DNA from: a phage
Assembly: GCA_012409925.1 (NCBI GenBank)
Contig: GCA_012409925.1_4804.1
Length of the DNA stretch: 60,053 bases
Reading direction: 5' to 3' (one strand)
Shown here: in pieces, positions 2,512-45,049 of the stretch
Position numbering within the stretch: the stretch's first letter is position 1
Layout of the letters: every line of letters starts with the position of its first letter
Notes under the pieces: generated by a model
Databases searched by the model: none
The model's input: only the letters and a program-made list of their open reading frames with translations
Told to the model about the DNA's origin: nothing
Position numbers and translations under genes: made by a program

Positions 2512-2568
2512 AGACTCCTTATATCTGATCAACAAATTATAATCTATAAGGAGTCTATAAGCAATATT

Positions 2569-18365: not shown

Positions 18366-19217
18366 TCAGATAATTGGTATTTTTCTGCACTTGCAGTGTA
18401 TTGCCCATCCAGGAGGACCGATGTCACCCTTTTTGAACTTAAGTTCTCCACCTACTTCCCATAAGCGTTTGTCATCAAGCTTGAATCTCATGCCGTCGAC
18501 GTGCTCATGTGATATTCGCGGCTCTTTGCCTGCTCCTGAATGCGCCCACTCAAATTCCTCAACGCCATTCTGTCGCATCCTTTCATCACTTAATACGCAA
18601 TAAAGTTTGCTCGTTTGGTCTTTGGCGATAAGGTCTACGCGTTTTGCAGAGAATTGTTTTACATTCCTTAGTGCCGCCTGAATGCCGGATGTGCCTTGCT
18701 GCGCTGGGTCTGGCGAAGTCAGCGAAAGCATCACCGCTTCGTACACCCTGTTGTGAATATCCTCGCCAACCTTAGTCACTAGAGTCGTGTTGAACGTCTC
18801 GCTTGTTTTAAGAGTGTTCTCAACGAATTTATTATATGTGGCTTTTGGCGCTTCTATTCCTGCAGATTTAAGACTTGCGAATGTAGCAGAAGTCGCACCC
18901 TTTTCAACTGACTTGATGAAATCTGCGGCAATCTTTGACCCAACACGGGCGAATGCTTTTGCCCATTTCAGTTGAAGGCGCTTCATCAAGGTCTGAAAAG
19001 TTGAATCAGCAGAGTCTTGCGCAAAGAACCTTTTCACCTGCTTCTTTTCAAGCCACTCAGCAATGCCTGCCTGATAGTCATCAATCATCGCATAGCAAAG
19101 ACCTTTCATCTCACGACGATAGGCCATCGCAATAGCGTTGGATGGGATTATCGGACTGCCGCGCCCGATTCTATCGGGTGAGCGGCGTTCGCGTTTTTTC
19201 GAAGCTTTAAAAGCCAT
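18366..19217 (-). CDS. head morphogenesis protein, MuF-like
   Basis: Directly downstream of portal; C-terminal ...GWAIHCKCRKIP... Cys/His motif typical of Mu F-like proteins; start at ATG 19217 abutting portal stop. Confidence 0.55.
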   Translation of the reverse strand: MAFKASKKRERRSPDRIGRGSPIIPSNAIAMAYRREMKGLCYAMIDDYQAGIAEWLEKKQVKRFFAQDSADSTFQTLMKRLQLKWAKAFARVGSKIAADFIKSVEKGATSATFASLKSAGIEAPKATYNKFVENTLKTSETFNTTLVTKVGEDIHNRVYEAVMLSLTSPDPAQQGTSGIQAALRNVKQFSAKRVDLIAKDQTSKLYCVLSDERMRQNGVEEFEWAHSGAGKEPRISHEHVDGMRFKLDDKRLWEVGGELKFKKGDIGPPGWAIHCKCRKIPII

Positions 19218-19218
19218 A

Positions 19219-21594
19219 TCAACCTTGCTTCGGTGAATTAGTAGGATTATTGAGTGCTCCATATGCTTGAGAGCAATCACTCTTCAACCACTCCTTGAAT
19301 GAGTTTACATCCAATTCGTGGATTGAGTCAAATCCATTCCAACCGTTACCAAATGATGCTTGATAAGCTTCTTTCGCTTCTTCTGCTGAATCGAATCCAA
19401 GCATACACTTGTGTTCATCAAATTCGCCAGAATAATTATCATTTTGGTTAATGATGAATACTTTAGGCGACTTCATATTTGGTCCAACAAAGCAGTCGAC
19501 TTCATCACCATCAGCACCCTTGGTGCCTTTGATAAATCCGTAATGGTGCGGCATCTTAACTGCCCATTCACCATCAAGGCTGTTACCCCTGCGAATGCTG
19601 TTTCGAGGATTCTCGATGCCAAGAATCATCCCGTGCAACTTCATCTTAGGCAGCGACGCAGCATCCATCTTCCCTACGTTGTGGCGCAAGTTGACTACAT
19701 TGCCTTTTACGCTTGGAAGGGTAGACGGCTGCACAGACCTTGCGTCTTTTTGAGGGTCAAAATCCACATCCTGACCTTCTTTAAGGTAATAGTCAGAAAT
19801 ACCCTCCAGACCTTCTTTCAGTTGCGTTAGGACATCAACCTGATGGCTTGATTCGTCATCGGTATCATCCATGTTGATCTCAACTGGTGCCCTGTCAGGG
19901 TTTTCTGCCAACTCACCGCGCGCGGCACCTTCCGGCATGATACCAGTCTCACTATAGAACTGGCCGCCCATTTTGACGACATCAGCTTTGGCCTGTTCAA
20001 TATCGGCTTTACCTTGCAGAACTTCACCAGCAGACTTGCCAAGCAATGCCATATTCTCTGGAGACATCCCTGGGGTTTCTTCTGCTGTATCTTCTGGCAA
20101 ACGGTTGTAGCCGCTGTTTTTGTCGTCCTTGATGCGGTCGCGCTCTTCATCAGGGGAGATGACGCCAGCATCAATGAGAGTCTTACCAGTATTCGCTCGT
20201 TTGTCGTTAATCTCTGCAAGCTGAGTAGCAGTAAGTGAACCAACTGGCTCCCATGCCACTTTAACGTCGACTTCAACACCTTCAGATTTCAAAAGGATTT
20301 TATAGTGACGGTCAAGAATCTTCGTCAAATCGTGCTGCTGACAAGTCTCCAATTCTTCGTGATAGCTGACCATTTCGAACTCACCAGTGGCATTAAAGCC
20401 TTTAGGTGACGTCCCTAACAGTTTTGTCGACGGAACTTTTGCGATTGCGGCCACCAGCTGGTACTGGTTCATGATGATGCTGTCGAAGTCTGACAAGTTG
20501 ATGTCAAACTGGTCCATCTCTTCTTTCTGACCAAGCACTTTAACCGCATAGTTGTCGCGGTACTTAATCCACATCATCAGACGTTCGGCAAACGACCGCT
20601 CATTGGCAATCGCCTTGTCAACGTCGGTCCGCAGAGTGGTTGTACGCTTAGACATCGCCAGCAATGGCGCTTCGTTAGCGGTACGTTCAGCGGCATAGAT
20701 ACGTTCATAAATCTGTTGAGTCAGAGGAATGCCGCCGTAGATATAAGTCGGCTTGAGAATATCAGCTGGCTCATCATTGCGCAAGATGATTAGGTGGCTG
20801 CGATGATAACGCTGTCCGCTGATCACCCAGTATTCTGGATCATAGAAGTGCTGTGATGCAGGGTCTGCAGTGTTTTCAGACGTCAAGAATGGCATCATCC
20901 AATAAGGGTCAACTTGAATGATTCCCTTATAAGACCCTTTTGTCACACCATCGATGTTAAAAGGTTTGCTATAATATTCTGGGTCATCACTGCGCACATC
21001 AAATATGATGACGCGGATACCAAAAATATTCTTGAATCGTTCGGCTTCAACTAAGTGCTCTTTGATATTAAATTCTTTATCAATTTGCTTTAGGCGTTCG
21101 CTGGCCTGTACTGACAATTCCGACTCAGAACTGGATTTGACTTCCCAGCCTTTACGGACCGCATCGCGGCCTACCATGGAACAAGCCTTGTTCACCAGCC
21201 AGTGCTGCGCGATGATGGCGCAAGCTTGATATCCGATAAATGATTGCGATAAGTACCAGTTTTGCAACTGAATAGGTACTGTGTATGGATTAACCTGCCC
21301 TTCTGAACTGATGTTCTTCAAAGCATTGTCCATAACTTTTTTGGATACGGTTGCTGAATCTACTGAGCGACCTTTGATGATTGCAACACCGTCCCCGTTG
21401 ATATCAGGCTCATATAAAGGAAAGTCATCAACGGTTTTAAAGGTCGGGCGGTTGCTTTCTGTCTTATCCCAGCGTTGACCGCTGCCGCGCCTTTCCAGGC
21501 GTTCAAACGGTGCCAATGGGTCGCCTGGCGGCATCTCCGCTTGTTCGGCTTCTGGTTGCGTCTTCTCCCAGAGTTTTATGCCAAGAATTTTCAT
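19219..21594 (-). CDS. portal protein with C-terminal inorganic-pyrophosphatase-like extension
   Basis: ~790 aa between large terminase and MuF-like gene; start at ATG 21594 with GGTGG RBS (track used GTG 21606); C-terminal ~130 aa carry ...HYGFIKGTKGADGDEVDCFVGP... resembling the DGDPxDVLV core of family-I pyrophosphatases. Confidence 0.55.
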   Translation of the reverse strand: MKILGIKLWEKTQPEAEQAEMPPGDPLAPFERLERRGSGQRWDKTESNRPTFKTVDDFPLYEPDINGDGVAIIKGRSVDSATVSKKVMDNALKNISSEGQVNPYTVPIQLQNWYLSQSFIGYQACAIIAQHWLVNKACSMVGRDAVRKGWEVKSSSESELSVQASERLKQIDKEFNIKEHLVEAERFKNIFGIRVIIFDVRSDDPEYYSKPFNIDGVTKGSYKGIIQVDPYWMMPFLTSENTADPASQHFYDPEYWVISGQRYHRSHLIILRNDEPADILKPTYIYGGIPLTQQIYERIYAAERTANEAPLLAMSKRTTTLRTDVDKAIANERSFAERLMMWIKYRDNYAVKVLGQKEEMDQFDINLSDFDSIIMNQYQLVAAIAKVPSTKLLGTSPKGFNATGEFEMVSYHEELETCQQHDLTKILDRHYKILLKSEGVEVDVKVAWEPVGSLTATQLAEINDKRANTGKTLIDAGVISPDEERDRIKDDKNSGYNRLPEDTAEETPGMSPENMALLGKSAGEVLQGKADIEQAKADVVKMGGQFYSETGIMPEGAARGELAENPDRAPVEINMDDTDDESSHQVDVLTQLKEGLEGISDYYLKEGQDVDFDPQKDARSVQPSTLPSVKGNVVNLRHNVGKMDAASLPKMKLHGMILGIENPRNSIRRGNSLDGEWAVKMPHHYGFIKGTKGADGDEVDCFVGPNMKSPKVFIINQNDNYSGEFDEHKCMLGFDSAEEAKEAYQASFGNGWNGFDSIHELDVNSFKEWLKSDCSQAYGALNNPTNSPKQG

Positions 21595-21701
21595 TGTTAA
21601 CGCCACCTGACAGTGAAAGGGGAATCAATCTATATTATAAATATTCATGTGTTTGTAAGCAAATGATATGTATAGTAATCATAAATAGTTCATAAAATAT
21701 T

Positions 21702-21729
21702 TTGCTTTTGTATCATTTTGAGTTATATT
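21702..21729 (+). promoter_or_regulatory. candidate sigma70-type promoter for plus-strand cassette
   Basis: TTGCTT (21702-21707), 16-nt spacer, TATATT (21724-21729) in the AT-rich divergent region upstream of AAGGAG RBS and ATG 21758. Confidence 0.3.
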
Positions 21730-21757
21730 TTAGTTAACCAAACGAAAGGAGATTGAA

Positions 21758-22174
21758 ATGAGCACAACAATTGTATTTGTCGTCCTTCATCAAGGCGAAG
21801 TAGTAAACGTATGCGAATATGAAGAGCTGGCAAAAGCCACTGCTGCACGATATGAAGGTGCCACAGTTGACCCTTGGATTTTGGATGCGCGAAACGTGTT
21901 GCAGGCGACAATGGATGAGTGGCTTTTAGGTCGCAAGGTGTATCCGGTTGAAAACATCGAATCCATTCAAGGTGAAACAGTATACTTTGAAGATGAATGC
22001 GTTCGCGGCATTGGTAAATTTATGGGATTGTGCCCATCTTCATCCAAAAATAAATTTTATCGTATTCAAGTTGAAGAAAACGATATGTTCGACAAAGTAA
22101 CGCGCTCTATTGTTCCTGGCGGCGGCACTCCAATCTTTATGGCAGAATCAGACATCAAGGGGATCATCAAATGA
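21758..22174 (+). CDS. hypothetical protein, 138 aa (moron cassette gene 1)
   Basis: ORF track; strong AAGGAG RBS; opposite strand to flanking packaging genes; acidic. Confidence 0.55.
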   Translation: MSTTIVFVVLHQGEVVNVCEYEELAKATAARYEGATVDPWILDARNVLQATMDEWLLGRKVYPVENIESIQGETVYFEDECVRGIGKFMGLCPSSSKNKFYRIQVEENDMFDKVTRSIVPGGGTPIFMAESDIKGIIK

Positions 22175-22410
22175 GAACGTTAACCGAACTCGATGTTTTG
22201 AAAGACGTTGCAGCCGCGCTGGGCGTAGAATTATCCGAAAAGGCGACACTAGGTGCTTTGCGTCGGGATTTACTCGAAGCCGTTGACCGCAACGATTTTG
22301 ACCGTAAGTGTATGCAAAAGAAGATTCGGCAGGCGGTGAGAGCGGGTAAGCGATTCCGTGCCAGGTCGTTTGCCGCAAGAAAGCTTGACCTTCAGCACGG
22401 AATGCTTTGA
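22171..22410 (+). CDS. hypothetical small basic protein, 79 aa (moron cassette gene 2)
   Basis: ORF track; ATGA overlap with gene 1; Arg/Lys-rich C-terminus (RQAVRAGKRFRARSFAARKL); stop 3 nt from convergent terminase stop. Confidence 0.5.
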   Translation: MRTLTELDVLKDVAAALGVELSEKATLGALRRDLLEAVDRNDFDRKCMQKKIRQAVRAGKRFRARSFAARKLDLQHGML

Positions 22411-22413
22411 TTG

Positions 22414-23874
22414 TTAAAGGTTAGAGAAGAAGCCGGATGCTGCAACGATTGGTTTCATCAATGCCATGATTGCTGCGTCCGCTTTGTTAGGTGATTTGAC
22501 TCCACGCTTTGCCATATCCTTTTTGGATTCAACTTTGAACTTGCCAAGAACAGACGTATCTTTGCGCGGCGCTGACATCTCAAAAAGAAACGTCTCAATC
22601 TCTTCAGTAGTCCAAGCTGGAATCCCAAGTTCCGGTATGCCATCGGTGTCGATTGAAATCAATTCATCAGTCGGATATACGGCTTGCCCAGTCGCATACT
22701 CGTATGTCTTTCTGAATCGTTCCGCAATCTCAGTCCACTTTTGCGCTTTTATGTTTGCAAAATGGTCTTTATTGAGTATTTCAACGTGTGGTAGTTCAAG
22801 AAAAACGTCATCAGGATCATCAACAGACCCTTGCGCATTGAACGCATTAAATTCGATTCTTGGAAATGATGGATTTTCATGTATTGCATACTCGTTCAGT
22901 TCATCAAATTTTGAACCAGCAAAAGCGCCGACACCGATGGCATCATAAGTTATAGAAGCGCCAAATGTAAGCGCATCTTTCCAAACTCCGCTTGCCGATT
23001 TCAACAATTCATCTTCCAGACCTTCCCACGTCTTGATGCCACGTAATACGTTTCCTGTAACGAATGCAGTGGCATTAAGGTCGTCGCCATCGTCCGCTAC
23101 GTCAAAGCCTATACGGTTAGACCCTGACAAACTCCAGCCCAGCGTAGGGTGTTTGTGGAGATTAAGAGCGGCCTTAACGAATGCACGGTTGATTACAGAT
23201 TTATCGCCGCCAGTCTTCGGCACGCCGCCATAAACGTGCTCTGCCTTTTTCGGGTCGCGCTCGTACATGCCTGCAATAACGTCCAGCATCGTTTGCGACA
23301 AGAATGGGTTGTCTTGCCAGTTTATCTTTTTAACTATGGCATTCTTCGGCGGTCGCATAACAAAGTTTTGGTAGACGAAATCGGCCTCTTCATCAGGGTT
23401 AAAGATGATCCATATTTCTGACCCTTCTTTACGGATTGTCGGCTCAATAATGTCCCACTGTTCTTCAGTAAGTGCGTGCGCTTCTTCCAGCCAAAGAACA
23501 TCAACACCTTCCGTTGATTTAATTTCATCAACGTTACGTGCGATACCGTAAAATAGAAATTCAGATTTAGTTCTTTTATGCTCGATAGAGTTCTTTAATA
23601 AATTGAACTCATCTTTAAAATCAGAAATCTCTATTTTATCTTTTAATAGAGTATATACAGATTCAGAAATCTTGTTCTGGAATTGTCGAACGCAAAGGAA
23701 TTTTAATTTGAAGTTTGCCGCCAAATAAATAGCAAAACCAGCGGCATCGTGCGATTTGGAAGATGCACGACCGCCGTATATTACTTTGTATCGCGCTTTT
23801 GTCTTCCAGACTTCTTTTAAAGCAGGATTCAACTGGTACATGACTTTCCAATTACGTGTTAATATTTTATTCAT
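22414..23874 (-). CDS. terminase large subunit
   Basis: 486 aa; N-terminal P-loop ...KVIYGGRASSKS...; acidic nuclease-like C-terminal half; alternative start at 23841 (Met12) has a better RBS. Confidence 0.8.
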   Translation of the reverse strand: MNKILTRNWKVMYQLNPALKEVWKTKARYKVIYGGRASSKSHDAAGFAIYLAANFKLKFLCVRQFQNKISESVYTLLKDKIEISDFKDEFNLLKNSIEHKRTKSEFLFYGIARNVDEIKSTEGVDVLWLEEAHALTEEQWDIIEPTIRKEGSEIWIIFNPDEEADFVYQNFVMRPPKNAIVKKINWQDNPFLSQTMLDVIAGMYERDPKKAEHVYGGVPKTGGDKSVINRAFVKAALNLHKHPTLGWSLSGSNRIGFDVADDGDDLNATAFVTGNVLRGIKTWEGLEDELLKSASGVWKDALTFGASITYDAIGVGAFAGSKFDELNEYAIHENPSFPRIEFNAFNAQGSVDDPDDVFLELPHVEILNKDHFANIKAQKWTEIAERFRKTYEYATGQAVYPTDELISIDTDGIPELGIPAWTTEEIETFLFEMSAPRKDTSVLGKFKVESKKDMAKRGVKSPNKADAAIMALMKPIVAASGFFSNL

Positions 23875-23950
23875 ATTATAGTTTGCTTGTACAAGCTATA
23901 TCAAGTAAAATTATGATTCCAGCTTAGTAGTGGATAAAGGGTGATCTTTC

Positions 23951-23978
23951 GGCCAGATTCTTTCTGGCCATTTTTTTA
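23951..23978 (+). terminator. rho-independent terminator-like hairpin (plus strand)
   Basis: GGCCAG-attcttt-CTGGCC followed by ATTTTTTTAT; orientation-specific (no T-run on minus strand). Confidence 0.45.
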
Positions 23979-23991
23979 TCAGGAGTAAACC

Positions 23992-24222
23992 ATGGCCCTA
24001 GTCAACATTCAACTCACTCCCTCTTATACTTCCGTTATTTCCGTTGCCGAAAACGTATCCGGCGCACTCATTCAAGTTCGCGGCGGCACTGCTGAGATTT
24101 GTTTTGAGGAAAAGGCCGATGACAAGTTGATCGGCATTGCTGTTAACGGCACAATCGAAATCCCGCCAGGCGTTGAGATTTTCGCAAAGGGAAGTGGCAC
24201 ATTAATTGTGTCTTCACACTGA
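23992..24222 (+). CDS. hypothetical protein, 76 aa
   Basis: ORF track; AGGAG RBS. Confidence 0.5.
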   Translation: MALVNIQLTPSYTSVISVAENVSGALIQVRGGTAEICFEEKADDKLIGIAVNGTIEIPPGVEIFAKGSGTLIVSSH

Positions 24223-24310
24223 TACGATGCCATGGACGGCATAATTCACAAAAAGTTTGCCTTTCTGAAAGTCTGCGTTATAATCATATTAACTCAAAAC
24301 CGGAGGTAAT

Positions 24311-24526
24311 ATGAAACTCATCGACCGTGCCATCAAAGCCATAGACAACCATTCCACAGCTATTGCGTTTGTAATGGGATTCTGTTTTACTGCTGTGTTT
24401 GGCGACGTTCACACATTCAAGTCTGTCATCTTGTGCTGGTCTATCTGGTCCCTCATTTCTCTGGTTTTGATTCTTCCGATGACTTGGCTTGTCCTTACTT
24501 GTCTGGAATCTCAAGGTGAAGACTGA
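24311..24526 (+). CDS. small membrane protein, 2 predicted TM helices (holin-like candidate)
   Basis: 71 aa with hydrophobic stretches AIAFVMGFCFTAVFG and VILCWSIWSLISLVLILPMTWLVL and charged C-terminus; GGAGG RBS. Confidence 0.4.
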   Translation: MKLIDRAIKAIDNHSTAIAFVMGFCFTAVFGDVHTFKSVILCWSIWSLISLVLILPMTWLVLTCLESQGED

Positions 24527-43824: not shown

Positions 43825-43876
43825 TTGTATATTAATATAGTAAAACTCAATTTAAAGCAATATAACTGGTGAACTA

Positions 43877-44991: not shown

Positions 44992-45049
44992 GAATCACCT
45001 CTGCTTCAGTTCATAAAATGATTATAGTTGCTATGAAAATAAAAGCAAA

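What the first reader, a model, noticed from the sequence alone, without database searches (positions are those of the whole stretch)
21607..22410. Opposite-strand two-gene cassette wedged between portal and large terminase
Genes 21758..22174 (acidic, 138 aa) and 22171..22410 (basic, 79 aa) overlap by ATGA, have a strong AAGGAG RBS and a candidate promoter, and are transcribed against the otherwise uninterrupted minus-strand packaging/structural operon. The second gene stops 3 nt from the convergent terminase stop, leaving no room for terminators. A moron-like insertion at a packaging-module junction with an acidic/basic protein pair could be a toxin-antitoxin-like or anti-defence pair, or a regulator of late transcription via convergent transcription through the terminase gene.
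Basis: partly seen in the sequence, partly recalled or inferred. Interest (0 to 1): 0.65.

Follow-up and report, generated by a model that had tools for sequence, protein, structure and literature searches.

The report
Conserved two-gene accessory operon in Wifcevirus
Two small genes of unknown function, read against the surrounding packaging genes of an E. coli phage, are real and expressed, but they are an old inherited feature of this phage lineage, not a recent insertion or a toxin-antitoxin pair.

Summary
ORF A (21758..22174, 138 aa, pI 4.7) and ORF B (22171..22410, 79 aa, pI 10.3) lie on the + strand between portal and large terminase (TerL). They overlap by ATGA, have a strong RBS, and end 3 nt from the TerL stop.

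The window is a Wifcevirus, 97.5% identical to vB_Eco4M-7. Both genes occur in all 29 Wifcevirus records and are under purifying selection (dN/dS 0.10 and 0.06). In vB_Eco4M-7, HiBiT-tagged A (gp35) is produced during infection, and neither protein was detected by virion mass spectrometry.

The cassette is not a moron-like insertion. An inverted gene block between TerL and portal is shared by the PB1-like lineage: 2 genes here, 4-5 in Kylevirus-like phages, 7 in Serratia MTx, 14 in Pbunavirus 14-1. A is the first gene of that block in four lineages (14-1 gp17). In relatives, B follows a lipoprotein protease gene, so A and B are not an obligate pair.

A sigma-70-type promoter for A sits back-to-back with the portal promoter, in a 162-nt spacer that evolves about 20 times more slowly than synonymous sites.

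No toxin, antitoxin, defence or known-family match was found. Molecular function remains unknown. Interest is modest.

The parts
21596..21757 (.). Divergent portal/ORF A regulatory spacer (163 nt here, 162 nt in most relatives)
   Evidence: Mean pairwise distance is 0.0115 across 11 Wifcevirus genomes, against synonymous pS of 0.20-0.29 in the flanking genes. Blocks conserved across four genus-level lineages coincide with the promoter hexamers.
21634..21662 (-). Portal promoter, TTGCTT-17-TATAAT
   Evidence: Pattern search. The equivalent site is present in L003, L014, Kyle and 14-1. A sigma-70 promoter is annotated at this place in 14-1 and was predicted there in JG024 (PMC3008698).
21702..21729 (+). 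ORF A/B promoter P_A, TTGCTT-16-TATATT; predicted start near 21736
   Evidence: The pattern TTGCTT-N15-18-TATAWT gives 5 hits in the window against 0.07 expected. The same element at the same position is TTGCTT-16-TATATT in L003, TTGACT-16-TATAGT in L014 and TTGCTT-17-TATATT in Kyle.
21746..21751 (+). Shine-Dalgarno AAGGAG of ORF A
   Evidence: Read from the sequence. Annotated as an RBS in phage Mansfield.
21758..22174 (+). ORF A, 138 aa, acidic: a small N-terminal alpha/beta domain plus a C-terminal SH3/Tudor-like beta-barrel
22171..22410 (+). ORF B, 79 aa: acidic N-terminal helix-loop and a long Arg/Lys-rich C-terminal helix
   Evidence: The family is tiny: L003 67%, P0019-P0021 39-48%, Kyle gp026 about 30%. 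AF2 model: pLDDT 86, helices 6-17 and 27-77. No significant fold or sequence match. dN/dS is 0.060.
22411..22413 (.). 3-nt gap between the convergent stop codons of ORF B and TerL; no terminator
   Evidence: In MTx and 14-1 the equivalent gap holds a hairpin terminator (JG024 in PMC3008698).
22414..23841 (-). Large terminase (Terminase_3), 475 aa from the ATG at 23841
19219..21595 (-). Portal protein with a C-terminal InPase-like domain
23875..23904 (-). TerL promoter, TTGATA-18-TATAAT (11 of 12 matches)
   Evidence: Conserved in L003, L014 and Kyle.
23951..23978 (+). The only + strand intrinsic terminator downstream of ORF B (hairpin GGCCAGATTCTTTCTGGCC plus a T7 run). It lies just past the 5' end of TerL, so it would bound any cassette read-through.
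   Evidence: Conserved in position in L003, L014 and Kyle. Its more likely primary role is as a leader terminator of the neighbouring + strand promoter (23883-23911).

Best explanation
ORF A and ORF B form a small, independently promoted, non-structural accessory operon. It was inherited vertically. It is the minimal surviving version of the inverted gene block that all PB1-like myoviruses carry between the large terminase and the portal. In Pbunavirus that block is treated as early-region, host-interaction genes.

Proposed mechanism, with what is shown and what is inferred:
- Host sigma-70 RNA polymerase starts at P_A (21702-21729), back-to-back with the portal promoter. This is supported by comparison with relatives.
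- A is translated from a strong SD, and B is translated by coupling at the ATGA overlap. Synthesis of A is shown experimentally in vB_Eco4M-7; coupling of B is inferred.
- Both products stay in the cell rather than entering the virion. Neither was detected by virion mass spectrometry.
- A offers an SH3/Tudor-like barrel as a binding module. B offers a long Arg/Lys-rich helix that most likely binds nucleic acid. My guess is that they act on transcription or other nucleic-acid transactions. This is inference.
- No terminator separates B from TerL, so cassette transcripts run antisense into TerL and TerL transcripts run antisense into the cassette. They continue until Rho stops the untranslated, C-rich RNA. 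The two units therefore probably dampen each other. This is inference.

The cassette is not a toxin-antitoxin pair and not a recent moron.
For: - Conservation and constraint: both genes are in all 29 Wifcevirus records. dN/dS is 0.098 and 0.060 with strong third-position bias.
- Synteny: an inverted block lies between TerL and portal in Kyle (5 genes), L003 and L014 (4-5), MTx (7) and 14-1 / SMS12 (13-14). A is the portal-proximal first gene in Wifcevirus, L003, L014, Kyle and Pbunavirus.
- B homologues in L003, L012, L014 and Kyle follow a Trypsin_2 lipoprotein gene.
- Composition is ordinary.
- The promoters are conserved in position across lineages, and the spacer evolves about 20 times more slowly than synonymous sites.
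- Expression: the gp35-HiBiT phage is viable (336 versus 332 plaques). It gives 3.1e6 RLU above the untagged control, against 10.8e6 for the portal fusion (PMC11074155).
- gp34 and gp35 are not among the 33 proteins detected by MS, and PI34_gp32/gp33 are not detected in ECML-117 (PMC7048862).
- The Pbunavirus block is called the 'early genome region' and holds the RNAP-binding gp12 and the YfiN-binding gp11 (PMC8085984; PMC10914365).
- There is no terminator at the junction, and rut-like C-rich windows lie on both read-through RNAs.
- Structures.
Against: - No transcript data exist for any Wifcevirus, so the start site, timing and 3' ends are predictions.
- The 'early' label comes from Pbunavirus papers, not from a measurement on gp17 or on this phage.
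- P_A and the portal promoter have the same design, so the cassette may be co-expressed with structural genes rather than earlier.
- The AF2 models rest on shallow alignments (10 and 5 sequences).
- Absence from one MS data set does not prove absence from virions.
Confidence: 0.55

Rival explanations
1. Anti-defence pair: A and/or B neutralise host restriction or another immunity system early in infection.
For: [quoted passage not shown] The cassette lies in the accessory block of the lineage, has its own promoter, and is expressed. A is acidic.
Against: A is conserved from Pseudomonas phages to E. coli phages and is under strong purifying selection with little presence/absence variation. Anti-defence genes are usually patchy. 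A's net charge of -7 is far from that of a DNA mimic. No family match was found. About 60 other ORFs of unknown function in the genome are equally eligible.
Confidence: 0.1
2. Packaging or assembly helper: B is a minimal small-terminase-like DNA-recognition protein, or A is a portal/terminase chaperone, kept next to the genes it serves.
For: The cassette sits between TerL and portal. No small terminase is annotated anywhere in a Wifcevirus genome. These genomes have about 3.7-kb terminal repeats that must be recognised (PMC6563267). B has a short N-terminal helix-loop, a long helix and a basic tail. From my own knowledge, the T7 small terminase is only 89 aa.
Against: B has no detectable homologue in Pbunavirus or MTx, although their TerL is 63-66% identical. 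The cassette is on the opposite strand and has its own promoter. B has no match to terminase families. C-terminal tagging of A has no effect on phage recovery.
Confidence: 0.1
3. The transcripts matter more than the proteins: terminator-less convergent transcription from P_A across TerL, and from P_TerL across A and B, is a timing switch for terminase expression.
For: The gap is 3 nt, or the genes overlap, in Wifcevirus, L003, L014 and Kyle. No intrinsic terminator lies on the + strand until 23951, just past the TerL 5' end. P_TerL is near consensus.
Against: Both ORFs are under strong protein-level selection, so this can only be an added role. Pbunavirus and MTx place a hairpin terminator at the junction, so antisense read-through is not a lineage-wide requirement. 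Rut-like windows predict early Rho termination. The terminator at 23951 is better explained as the leader terminator of the promoter at 23883-23911.
Confidence: 0.1
4. Type II toxin-antitoxin-like or abortive module: acidic upstream antitoxin, basic downstream toxin.
For: The ATGA overlap and the acidic/basic pairing fit the pattern.
Against: No toxin or antitoxin family hits were found in Pfam, NCBIfam or PADLOC. A and B are not adjacent in relatives, and A occurs alone in Pbunavirus. The genes are found only in virulent phage genomes, never in 5,426 E. coli genomes or 72,556 plasmids. B is modelled as a helix-loop-helix with no toxin fold. In the Pbunavirus early-region ORFan screen only gp12 and the YIP peptides affected growth (PMC8085984), although I could not verify that gp17 was included.
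Confidence: 0.03

Closest known systems
Inverted 'early-region' block between TerL and portal of Pbunavirus (PB1-like phages, e.g. 14-1 gp04-gp17)
   Same: The position, orientation and divergent promoter arrangement with the portal are the same. ORF A is homologous to the first gene of the block (14-1 gp17 / SMS12_017). TerL is 63% identical.
   Different: There are 2 genes here instead of 13-14. The DUF2786 protein, the gp12 RNAP binder, the YIP peptide and the methyltransferase are all missing. B has no Pbunavirus homologue. The junction terminator is lost.
Five-gene block of Pantoea phage Kyle and the metagenomic relatives L003 and L014 (A, lipoprotein Trypsin_2 protease, B, small ORF, DUF2786/DUF7168)
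   Same: Both A and B are present in the same order and strand. The last gene abuts or overlaps the TerL stop. The promoter layout is the same.
   Different: Wifcevirus has lost the protease and the DUF2786 gene, which fuses A and B into a coupled bicistron.
Phage morons (independently transcribed foreign insertions)
   Same: The cassette has its own promoter and sits on the opposite strand inside a late-gene region.
   Different: It is not foreign. It is universally present, syntenic across genera and compositionally ordinary, and it has no terminator of its own.
Tudor/KOW/CarD-RID type beta-barrel RNAP- or RNA-binding modules
   Different: No significant sequence relationship was found: hhalign probability is 4.5% against M. 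tuberculosis CarD. The fold is too common to indicate a function.

Membership tests
Type II toxin-antitoxin module | At least one partner belongs to a recognised toxin or antitoxin family or fold | tested here: not met
   No hits in Pfam, NCBIfam or PADLOC. Fold searches gave no toxin fold.
Type II toxin-antitoxin module | The two genes co-occur as an obligate adjacent pair wherever they are found | tested here: not met
   A protease gene separates A and B in Kyle, L003 and L014. Pbunavirus has A without B.
Type II toxin-antitoxin module | Toxicity of one product that is neutralised by the other | not testable with these tools
   This needs expression experiments.
Phage moron | Patchy presence among close relatives and atypical composition, indicating horizontal acquisition | tested here: not met
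   Present in 29 of 29 Wifcevirus records and syntenic in three further lineages. G+C is 0.41-0.50 against 0.41-0.52 in the flanks.
Phage moron | Autonomous transcription unit with its own promoter and terminator | tested here: inconclusive
   A promoter is present and conserved. There is no terminator of its own.
PB1-like inverted TerL-portal accessory block | Genes on the opposite strand between a Terminase_3 TerL and a Phage_portal_3 portal, in a phage of this lineage | tested here: met
PB1-like inverted TerL-portal accessory block | Homology of block genes between genera | tested here: met
   A matches 14-1 gp17 / SMS12_017 (blastp 1e-5 in a small database; profile search 4e-30 to 2e-25) and Kyle gp028. 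B matches Kyle gp026 and L003.
PB1-like inverted TerL-portal accessory block | Early expression and host-directed function | not testable with these tools
   Stated for the Pbunavirus region in PMC8085984. No timing data exist for gp17 or for any Wifcevirus.
Small terminase (TerS) | Match to a TerS family or fold | tested here: not met
   Pfam and PHROGs give no terminase family for A or B. The best PHROG hits are families of unknown function.
Small terminase (TerS) | Conservation alongside the cognate TerL | tested here: not met
   B is undetectable in Pbunavirus and MTx, although their TerL is 63-66% identical.
CarD/TRCF RNAP-interacting domain (PF02559) | Score above the Pfam gathering threshold, or a significant profile match | tested here: not met
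Rho_N / SAP / HeH helix-extended-helix DNA-binding motif | Sequence-profile or significant fold match | tested here: not met
   hhalign against the E. coli Rho N-terminal domain gives probability 0.2%. Foldseek hits to LEM and SAP domains have E > 6.
Anti-restriction DNA mimics (Ocr/ArdA-like) | Extreme negative charge that mimics DNA; a known family match | tested here: not met
   The net charge of A is -7.4 over 138 aa. No family match. The tools include no dedicated anti-defence library, so this is only a partial test.

The most novel reading that the evidence does not exclude
The A/B operon is one of the unidentified determinants behind the unexplained insensitivity of Wifcevirus to nearly all tested restriction and defence systems. 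Alternatively, A is a Tudor/KOW-like factor that binds the host transcription machinery (RNAP or Rho) and is conserved from Pseudomonas phages to E. coli phages. In that case it would also let the phage tolerate its terminator-less convergent transcription units.
Probability: 0.1. Interest if true: 0.6.

Novelty: new member of a known kind. Interest (0 to 1): 0.3.

Why it matters
The finding clarifies a puzzling piece of genome layout. The opposite-strand genes are the stripped-down core of a variable accessory block that PB1-like myoviruses, including therapeutic Pbunavirus phages, all carry between terminase and portal.

It singles out ORF A (the 14-1 gp17 family) as the one block gene kept from Pseudomonas phages to E. 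coli phages. That makes A a sensible first target for functional work.

It also provides a well-supported pair of back-to-back promoters in an unusually constrained spacer.

It does not reveal a new kind of system.

Tried and rejected
- Toxin-antitoxin reading: rejected. There are no family hits, A and B are not an obligate pair, and the genes are absent from bacterial genomes and plasmids.
- Moron or recent-insertion reading: rejected on synteny and composition.
- The promoter picked by the scan tool, CTGACA-18-TATATT at 21607-21636: rejected. Its '-10' is the mirror image of the portal promoter's TATAAT, and it is not conserved in relatives.
- B as a Rho_N/SAP/HeH domain: profile comparison negative, Foldseek not significant.
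- A as a CarD/TRCF-RID or KOW domain: fold class only, sequence tests sub-threshold. Kept as a lead, not a claim.
- Searches that added nothing: PDB sequence searches with both family profiles, IMG/VR scans and BFVD, which returned only the family itself.
- Transcript data for the 14-1 homologue: the ONT-cappable-seq paper's supplementary tables are not held, and its text does not mention gp17 or the TerL junction.
- Inferring from the gp35-HiBiT phage that B is dispensable: not possible. The primer design turns ATGA into GTGA, so coupled translation of B may persist.
- The + strand terminator at 23951 as the cassette's own terminator: downgraded. A conserved + strand promoter lies about 40 nt upstream of it.

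Full report
**1. What is there**

The window is a Wifcevirus, a virulent E. coli myovirus of about 68 kb. Region 19000-24500 is 97.5% identical to vB_Eco4M-7 and 91-98% identical to 28 other records.

- On the + strand, ORF A (21758..22174, 138 aa) and ORF B (22171..22410, 79 aa) overlap by ATGA.
- AAGGAG lies 6 nt upstream of the ATG of A, and AAGGGG lies 8 nt upstream of the ATG of B.
- The flanking - strand genes are the portal (Phage_portal_3 plus a C-terminal InPase-like domain) and the large terminase (Terminase_3).
- The B stop codon and the TerL stop codon are 3 nt apart.
- A has pI 4.73 and B has pI 10.34. B is bipolar: residues 1-44 have pI 4.5 and residues 45-79 have pI 12.

The only corrections are to gene starts. 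The portal starts at 21595 and TerL at 23841, as annotated in relatives.

**2. They are real, expressed genes**

Across 11 Wifcevirus genomes, dN/dS is 0.098 for A and 0.060 for B, at synonymous divergences of 0.29 and 0.20. The neighbouring TerL segment gives 0.019. Variable sites by codon position are 22/13/80 for A and 5/0/27 for B.

- The tagged phage was recovered as efficiently as the untagged one (336 versus 332 plaques).
- From the published differences to the gp27 fusion, it gave about 3.1e6 RLU above the untagged control on ATCC 43888. The portal fusion gave 10.8e6.
- On strain Ec134 it gave more signal than the portal fusion (PMC11074155).

This is protein-level proof of + strand expression in a near-identical phage.

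In the mass-spectrometry study of vB_Eco4M-7 and ECML-117 particles, gp34 and gp35 (and PI34_gp32 and gp33) are not among the 33 and 28 proteins detected. The portal and the other structural proteins are detected (PMC7048862).

**3. It is inherited, not inserted**

A and B are present in all 29 Wifcevirus records. G+C content in the cassette does not differ from that of its flanks.

More distant relatives carry an opposite-strand block at exactly this place.

| Phage or contig | Genes in the block | Content |
|---|---|---|
| Wifcevirus (window) | 2 | A, B |
| Pantoea phage Kyle | 5 | A homologue gp028, 'protease' gp027, B homologue gp026, gp025, gp024 |
| Contigs L003 and L014 | 4-5 | A, Trypsin_2, B, (small ORF), DUF2786/DUF7168 |
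| Serratia phage MTx | 7 | includes the DUF2786 protein; no A or B by blastp |
| Pbunavirus SMS12 and 14-1 | 13 and 14 | gp04-gp17 in 14-1 |
| Burkholderia phage Maja | none | no inverted block |

- A is homologous to the portal-proximal first gene of the Pbunavirus block (SMS12_017 / 14-1 gp17). Pairwise blastp gives 1e-5, and the profile search gives 4e-30 to 2e-25.
- B has a very small family: L003 (67%), three metagenomic proteins (39-48%) and Kyle gp026 (about 30%).
- Wherever the context is visible, B follows the Trypsin_2 gene.
- By sequence, those proteases begin with a lipoprotein signal...LALAGC.

The Wifcevirus cassette is therefore what is left after loss of the protease and DUF2786 genes, which brought A and B into direct ATGA coupling. 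A and B are not an obligate pair.

In the Pbunavirus literature this block is treated as the 'early genome region'. It contains the RNAP-binding transcription inhibitor gp12 and the YfiN-binding peptide gp11 (PMC8085984; PMC10914365).

**4. Regulatory anatomy**

The portal-A spacer (21596-21757) differs by only 1.15% on average among genomes whose flanking genes differ by 20-29% at synonymous sites.

It holds two back-to-back promoters of the same design:
- TTGCTT-17-TATAAT on the - strand (21662..21634), for the portal;
- TTGCTT-16-TATATT on the + strand (21702-21729), for A.

The pattern TTGCTT-N15-18-TATAWT occurs 5 times in the window against 0.07 expected. Both promoters recur at the same positions in L003, L014 and Kyle, even though the rest of the spacer has diverged. 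The portal promoter also matches the sigma-70 promoter annotated in 14-1 and predicted in JG024. The stronger-looking site reported by the scan tool (21607-21636) is the mirror image of the portal -10 and is not conserved.

At the other end, no intrinsic terminator exists on either strand around the B/TerL junction.

- MTx and 14-1 have a gap at this junction, and it holds a strong hairpin terminator (JG024 table).
- Wifcevirus, L003, L014 and Kyle have abutting or overlapping stop codons and no hairpin.
- Past each stop codon the read-through RNA is untranslated and C-rich, with several 78-nt windows of C/G >= 1.5. Rho-dependent termination is therefore the likely end point. This is inference.
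- The only + strand terminator downstream of B is at 23951-23978, just beyond the 5' end of TerL. It would bound any read-through. A conserved + strand promoter lies about 40 nt upstream of it, so its main role is probably as a leader terminator for the next operon.

**5. What the proteins look like**

The AF2 model of A (10-sequence alignment, pLDDT 84, pTM 0.73) has a small N-terminal beta-beta-alpha-beta unit and a C-terminal SH3-like barrel.

- BFVD returns only the family itself.
- A sub-threshold Pfam hit to the CarD/TRCF RNAP-interacting domain appears in 2 of 10 members (E 0.06-0.12, 12.9 bits against a cutoff of 23).
- hhalign against M. tuberculosis CarD aligns the barrels in register but with probability 4.5% and P 0.009 (the CarD sequence was verified against 4kbm_B).

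This is a lead, not a membership.

The AF2 model of B (pLDDT 86) is a short helix (6-17), a loop, and one long helix (27-77) whose C-terminal half is Arg/Lys-rich.

- Foldseek finds nothing significant.
- The Rho-N/SAP resemblance I suspected by eye fails a profile test, with probability 0.2%.
- Neither protein hits Pfam above threshold, NCBIfam, PADLOC or PDB sequences.
- PHROGs gives only weak hits to families of unknown function.

**6. Explanations**

The best-supported reading is a vertically inherited, independently promoted, non-virion accessory operon. It is the minimal form of the PB1-like inverted block. I hold that architectural part at about 0.85.

The molecular part is that B binds nucleic acid through its basic helix, A uses its barrel as a binding module, and both act on transcription or other nucleic-acid processes. 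This is inference from charge, fold class and the company the genes keep in Pbunavirus. I hold it at about 0.25. The combined statement is given 0.55.

Rivals:
- **Anti-defence (0.10).** It is attractive because Wifcevirus resists almost all tested systems without a known mechanism. It is weakened by the cross-host conservation of A.
- **Packaging or assembly helper, or TerS-like B (0.10).** No TerS is annotated in the genus. However, B is absent from relatives that share the TerL.
- **Antisense timing switch (0.10, as an added role only).**
- **Toxin-antitoxin (0.03).**

**7. Novelty and score**

Both genes are already annotated as hypothetical proteins in every record, and the inverted block is a known trait of PB1-like genomes. 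New here:
- the homology link between Wifcevirus ORF A and Pbunavirus gp17;
- the reconstruction of the cassette as a reduced block;
- the pair of conserved promoters in a highly constrained spacer;
- the loss of the junction terminator in the Wifcevirus/Kyle branch.

This is a new member of a known kind. It is useful for annotation and for choosing targets, but not surprising to a specialist. Interest is 0.3.

Noticed in passing
window 23842-23991 (also L003 11510-11642, L014 10676-10824, L002 11734-11900): The TerL/gp32 spacer has a near-consensus TerL promoter on the - strand (TTGATA-18-TATAAT). On the + strand it has a promoter (TTGCTT-17-TAAAAT, 23883-23911), followed about 40 nt later by a strong hairpin plus T7 terminator (23951-23978). 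That terminator ends only about 13 nt before the RBS of the next gene. The promoter, leader terminator, gene layout is conserved in three other lineages and resembles a lambda PR'-tR' antitermination arrangement for the operon that ends in the tail fibre.
   Followed up: partly
L002 11800-12024 (Pantoea phage Kyle gp022): The annotated minus-strand 74-aa gene overlaps the conserved + strand leader terminator, and a + strand ORF starts at about 11894. It is probably a mis-called gene.
   Followed up: no
window 23992-24222 (+): This 76-aa ORF (vB_Eco4M-7 gp32 / ECML-117 gp30) was detected by mass spectrometry in both phages, with a high score in vB_Eco4M-7 (PMC7048862). It appears to be an unannotated small virion protein encoded just upstream of TerL on the other strand.
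   Followed up: no
window 19219-21595 (-): The portal protein carries a C-terminal InPase-like domain (PF18823, E 4e-46). The same domain is seen in large phage-injected or virion proteins, including DarB-like antirestriction PHROGs.
   Followed up: no
L002 8414-8959, L003 8411-9019, L014 7353-7952, L012 79-675: Relatives encode a Trypsin_2 serine protease with a lipoprotein signal peptide (…LALAGC) between the A and B homologues. A phage-encoded periplasmic lipoprotein protease is unusual, and Wifcevirus has lost it.
   Followed up: partly
window 21596-21757: The portal/ORF A spacer is almost invariant across the genus (1.15% divergence against 20-29% at synonymous sites). Between the two -35 elements it contains a block, GATATGTAT...TCAAAAAT, that is conserved across four lineages and may be an operator or UP element. 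The window has one extra G (GGGG versus GGG) at about 21620 compared with all other genomes.
   Followed up: partly
L004 8001-8471 (Logan contig ERR4605272_2858): The ORF A homologue is frameshifted in its last third, giving a 156-aa product that runs into ORF B. This is either an assembly error or a natural variant lacking the barrel domain.
   Followed up: no
window-wide; PQ850605.1 (L023, L034): No small terminase subunit is annotated anywhere in a Wifcevirus genome, although the phage has about 3.7-kb direct terminal repeats.
   Followed up: partly
window 2536-2564, 43834-43860, 45021-45048 (all - strand): There are three further exact matches to the promoter pattern TTGCTT-N15-18-TATAWT. 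One lies in front of the baseplate-spike gene and two lie in the primase region. The same promoter type therefore serves both structural and replication genes.
   Followed up: partly
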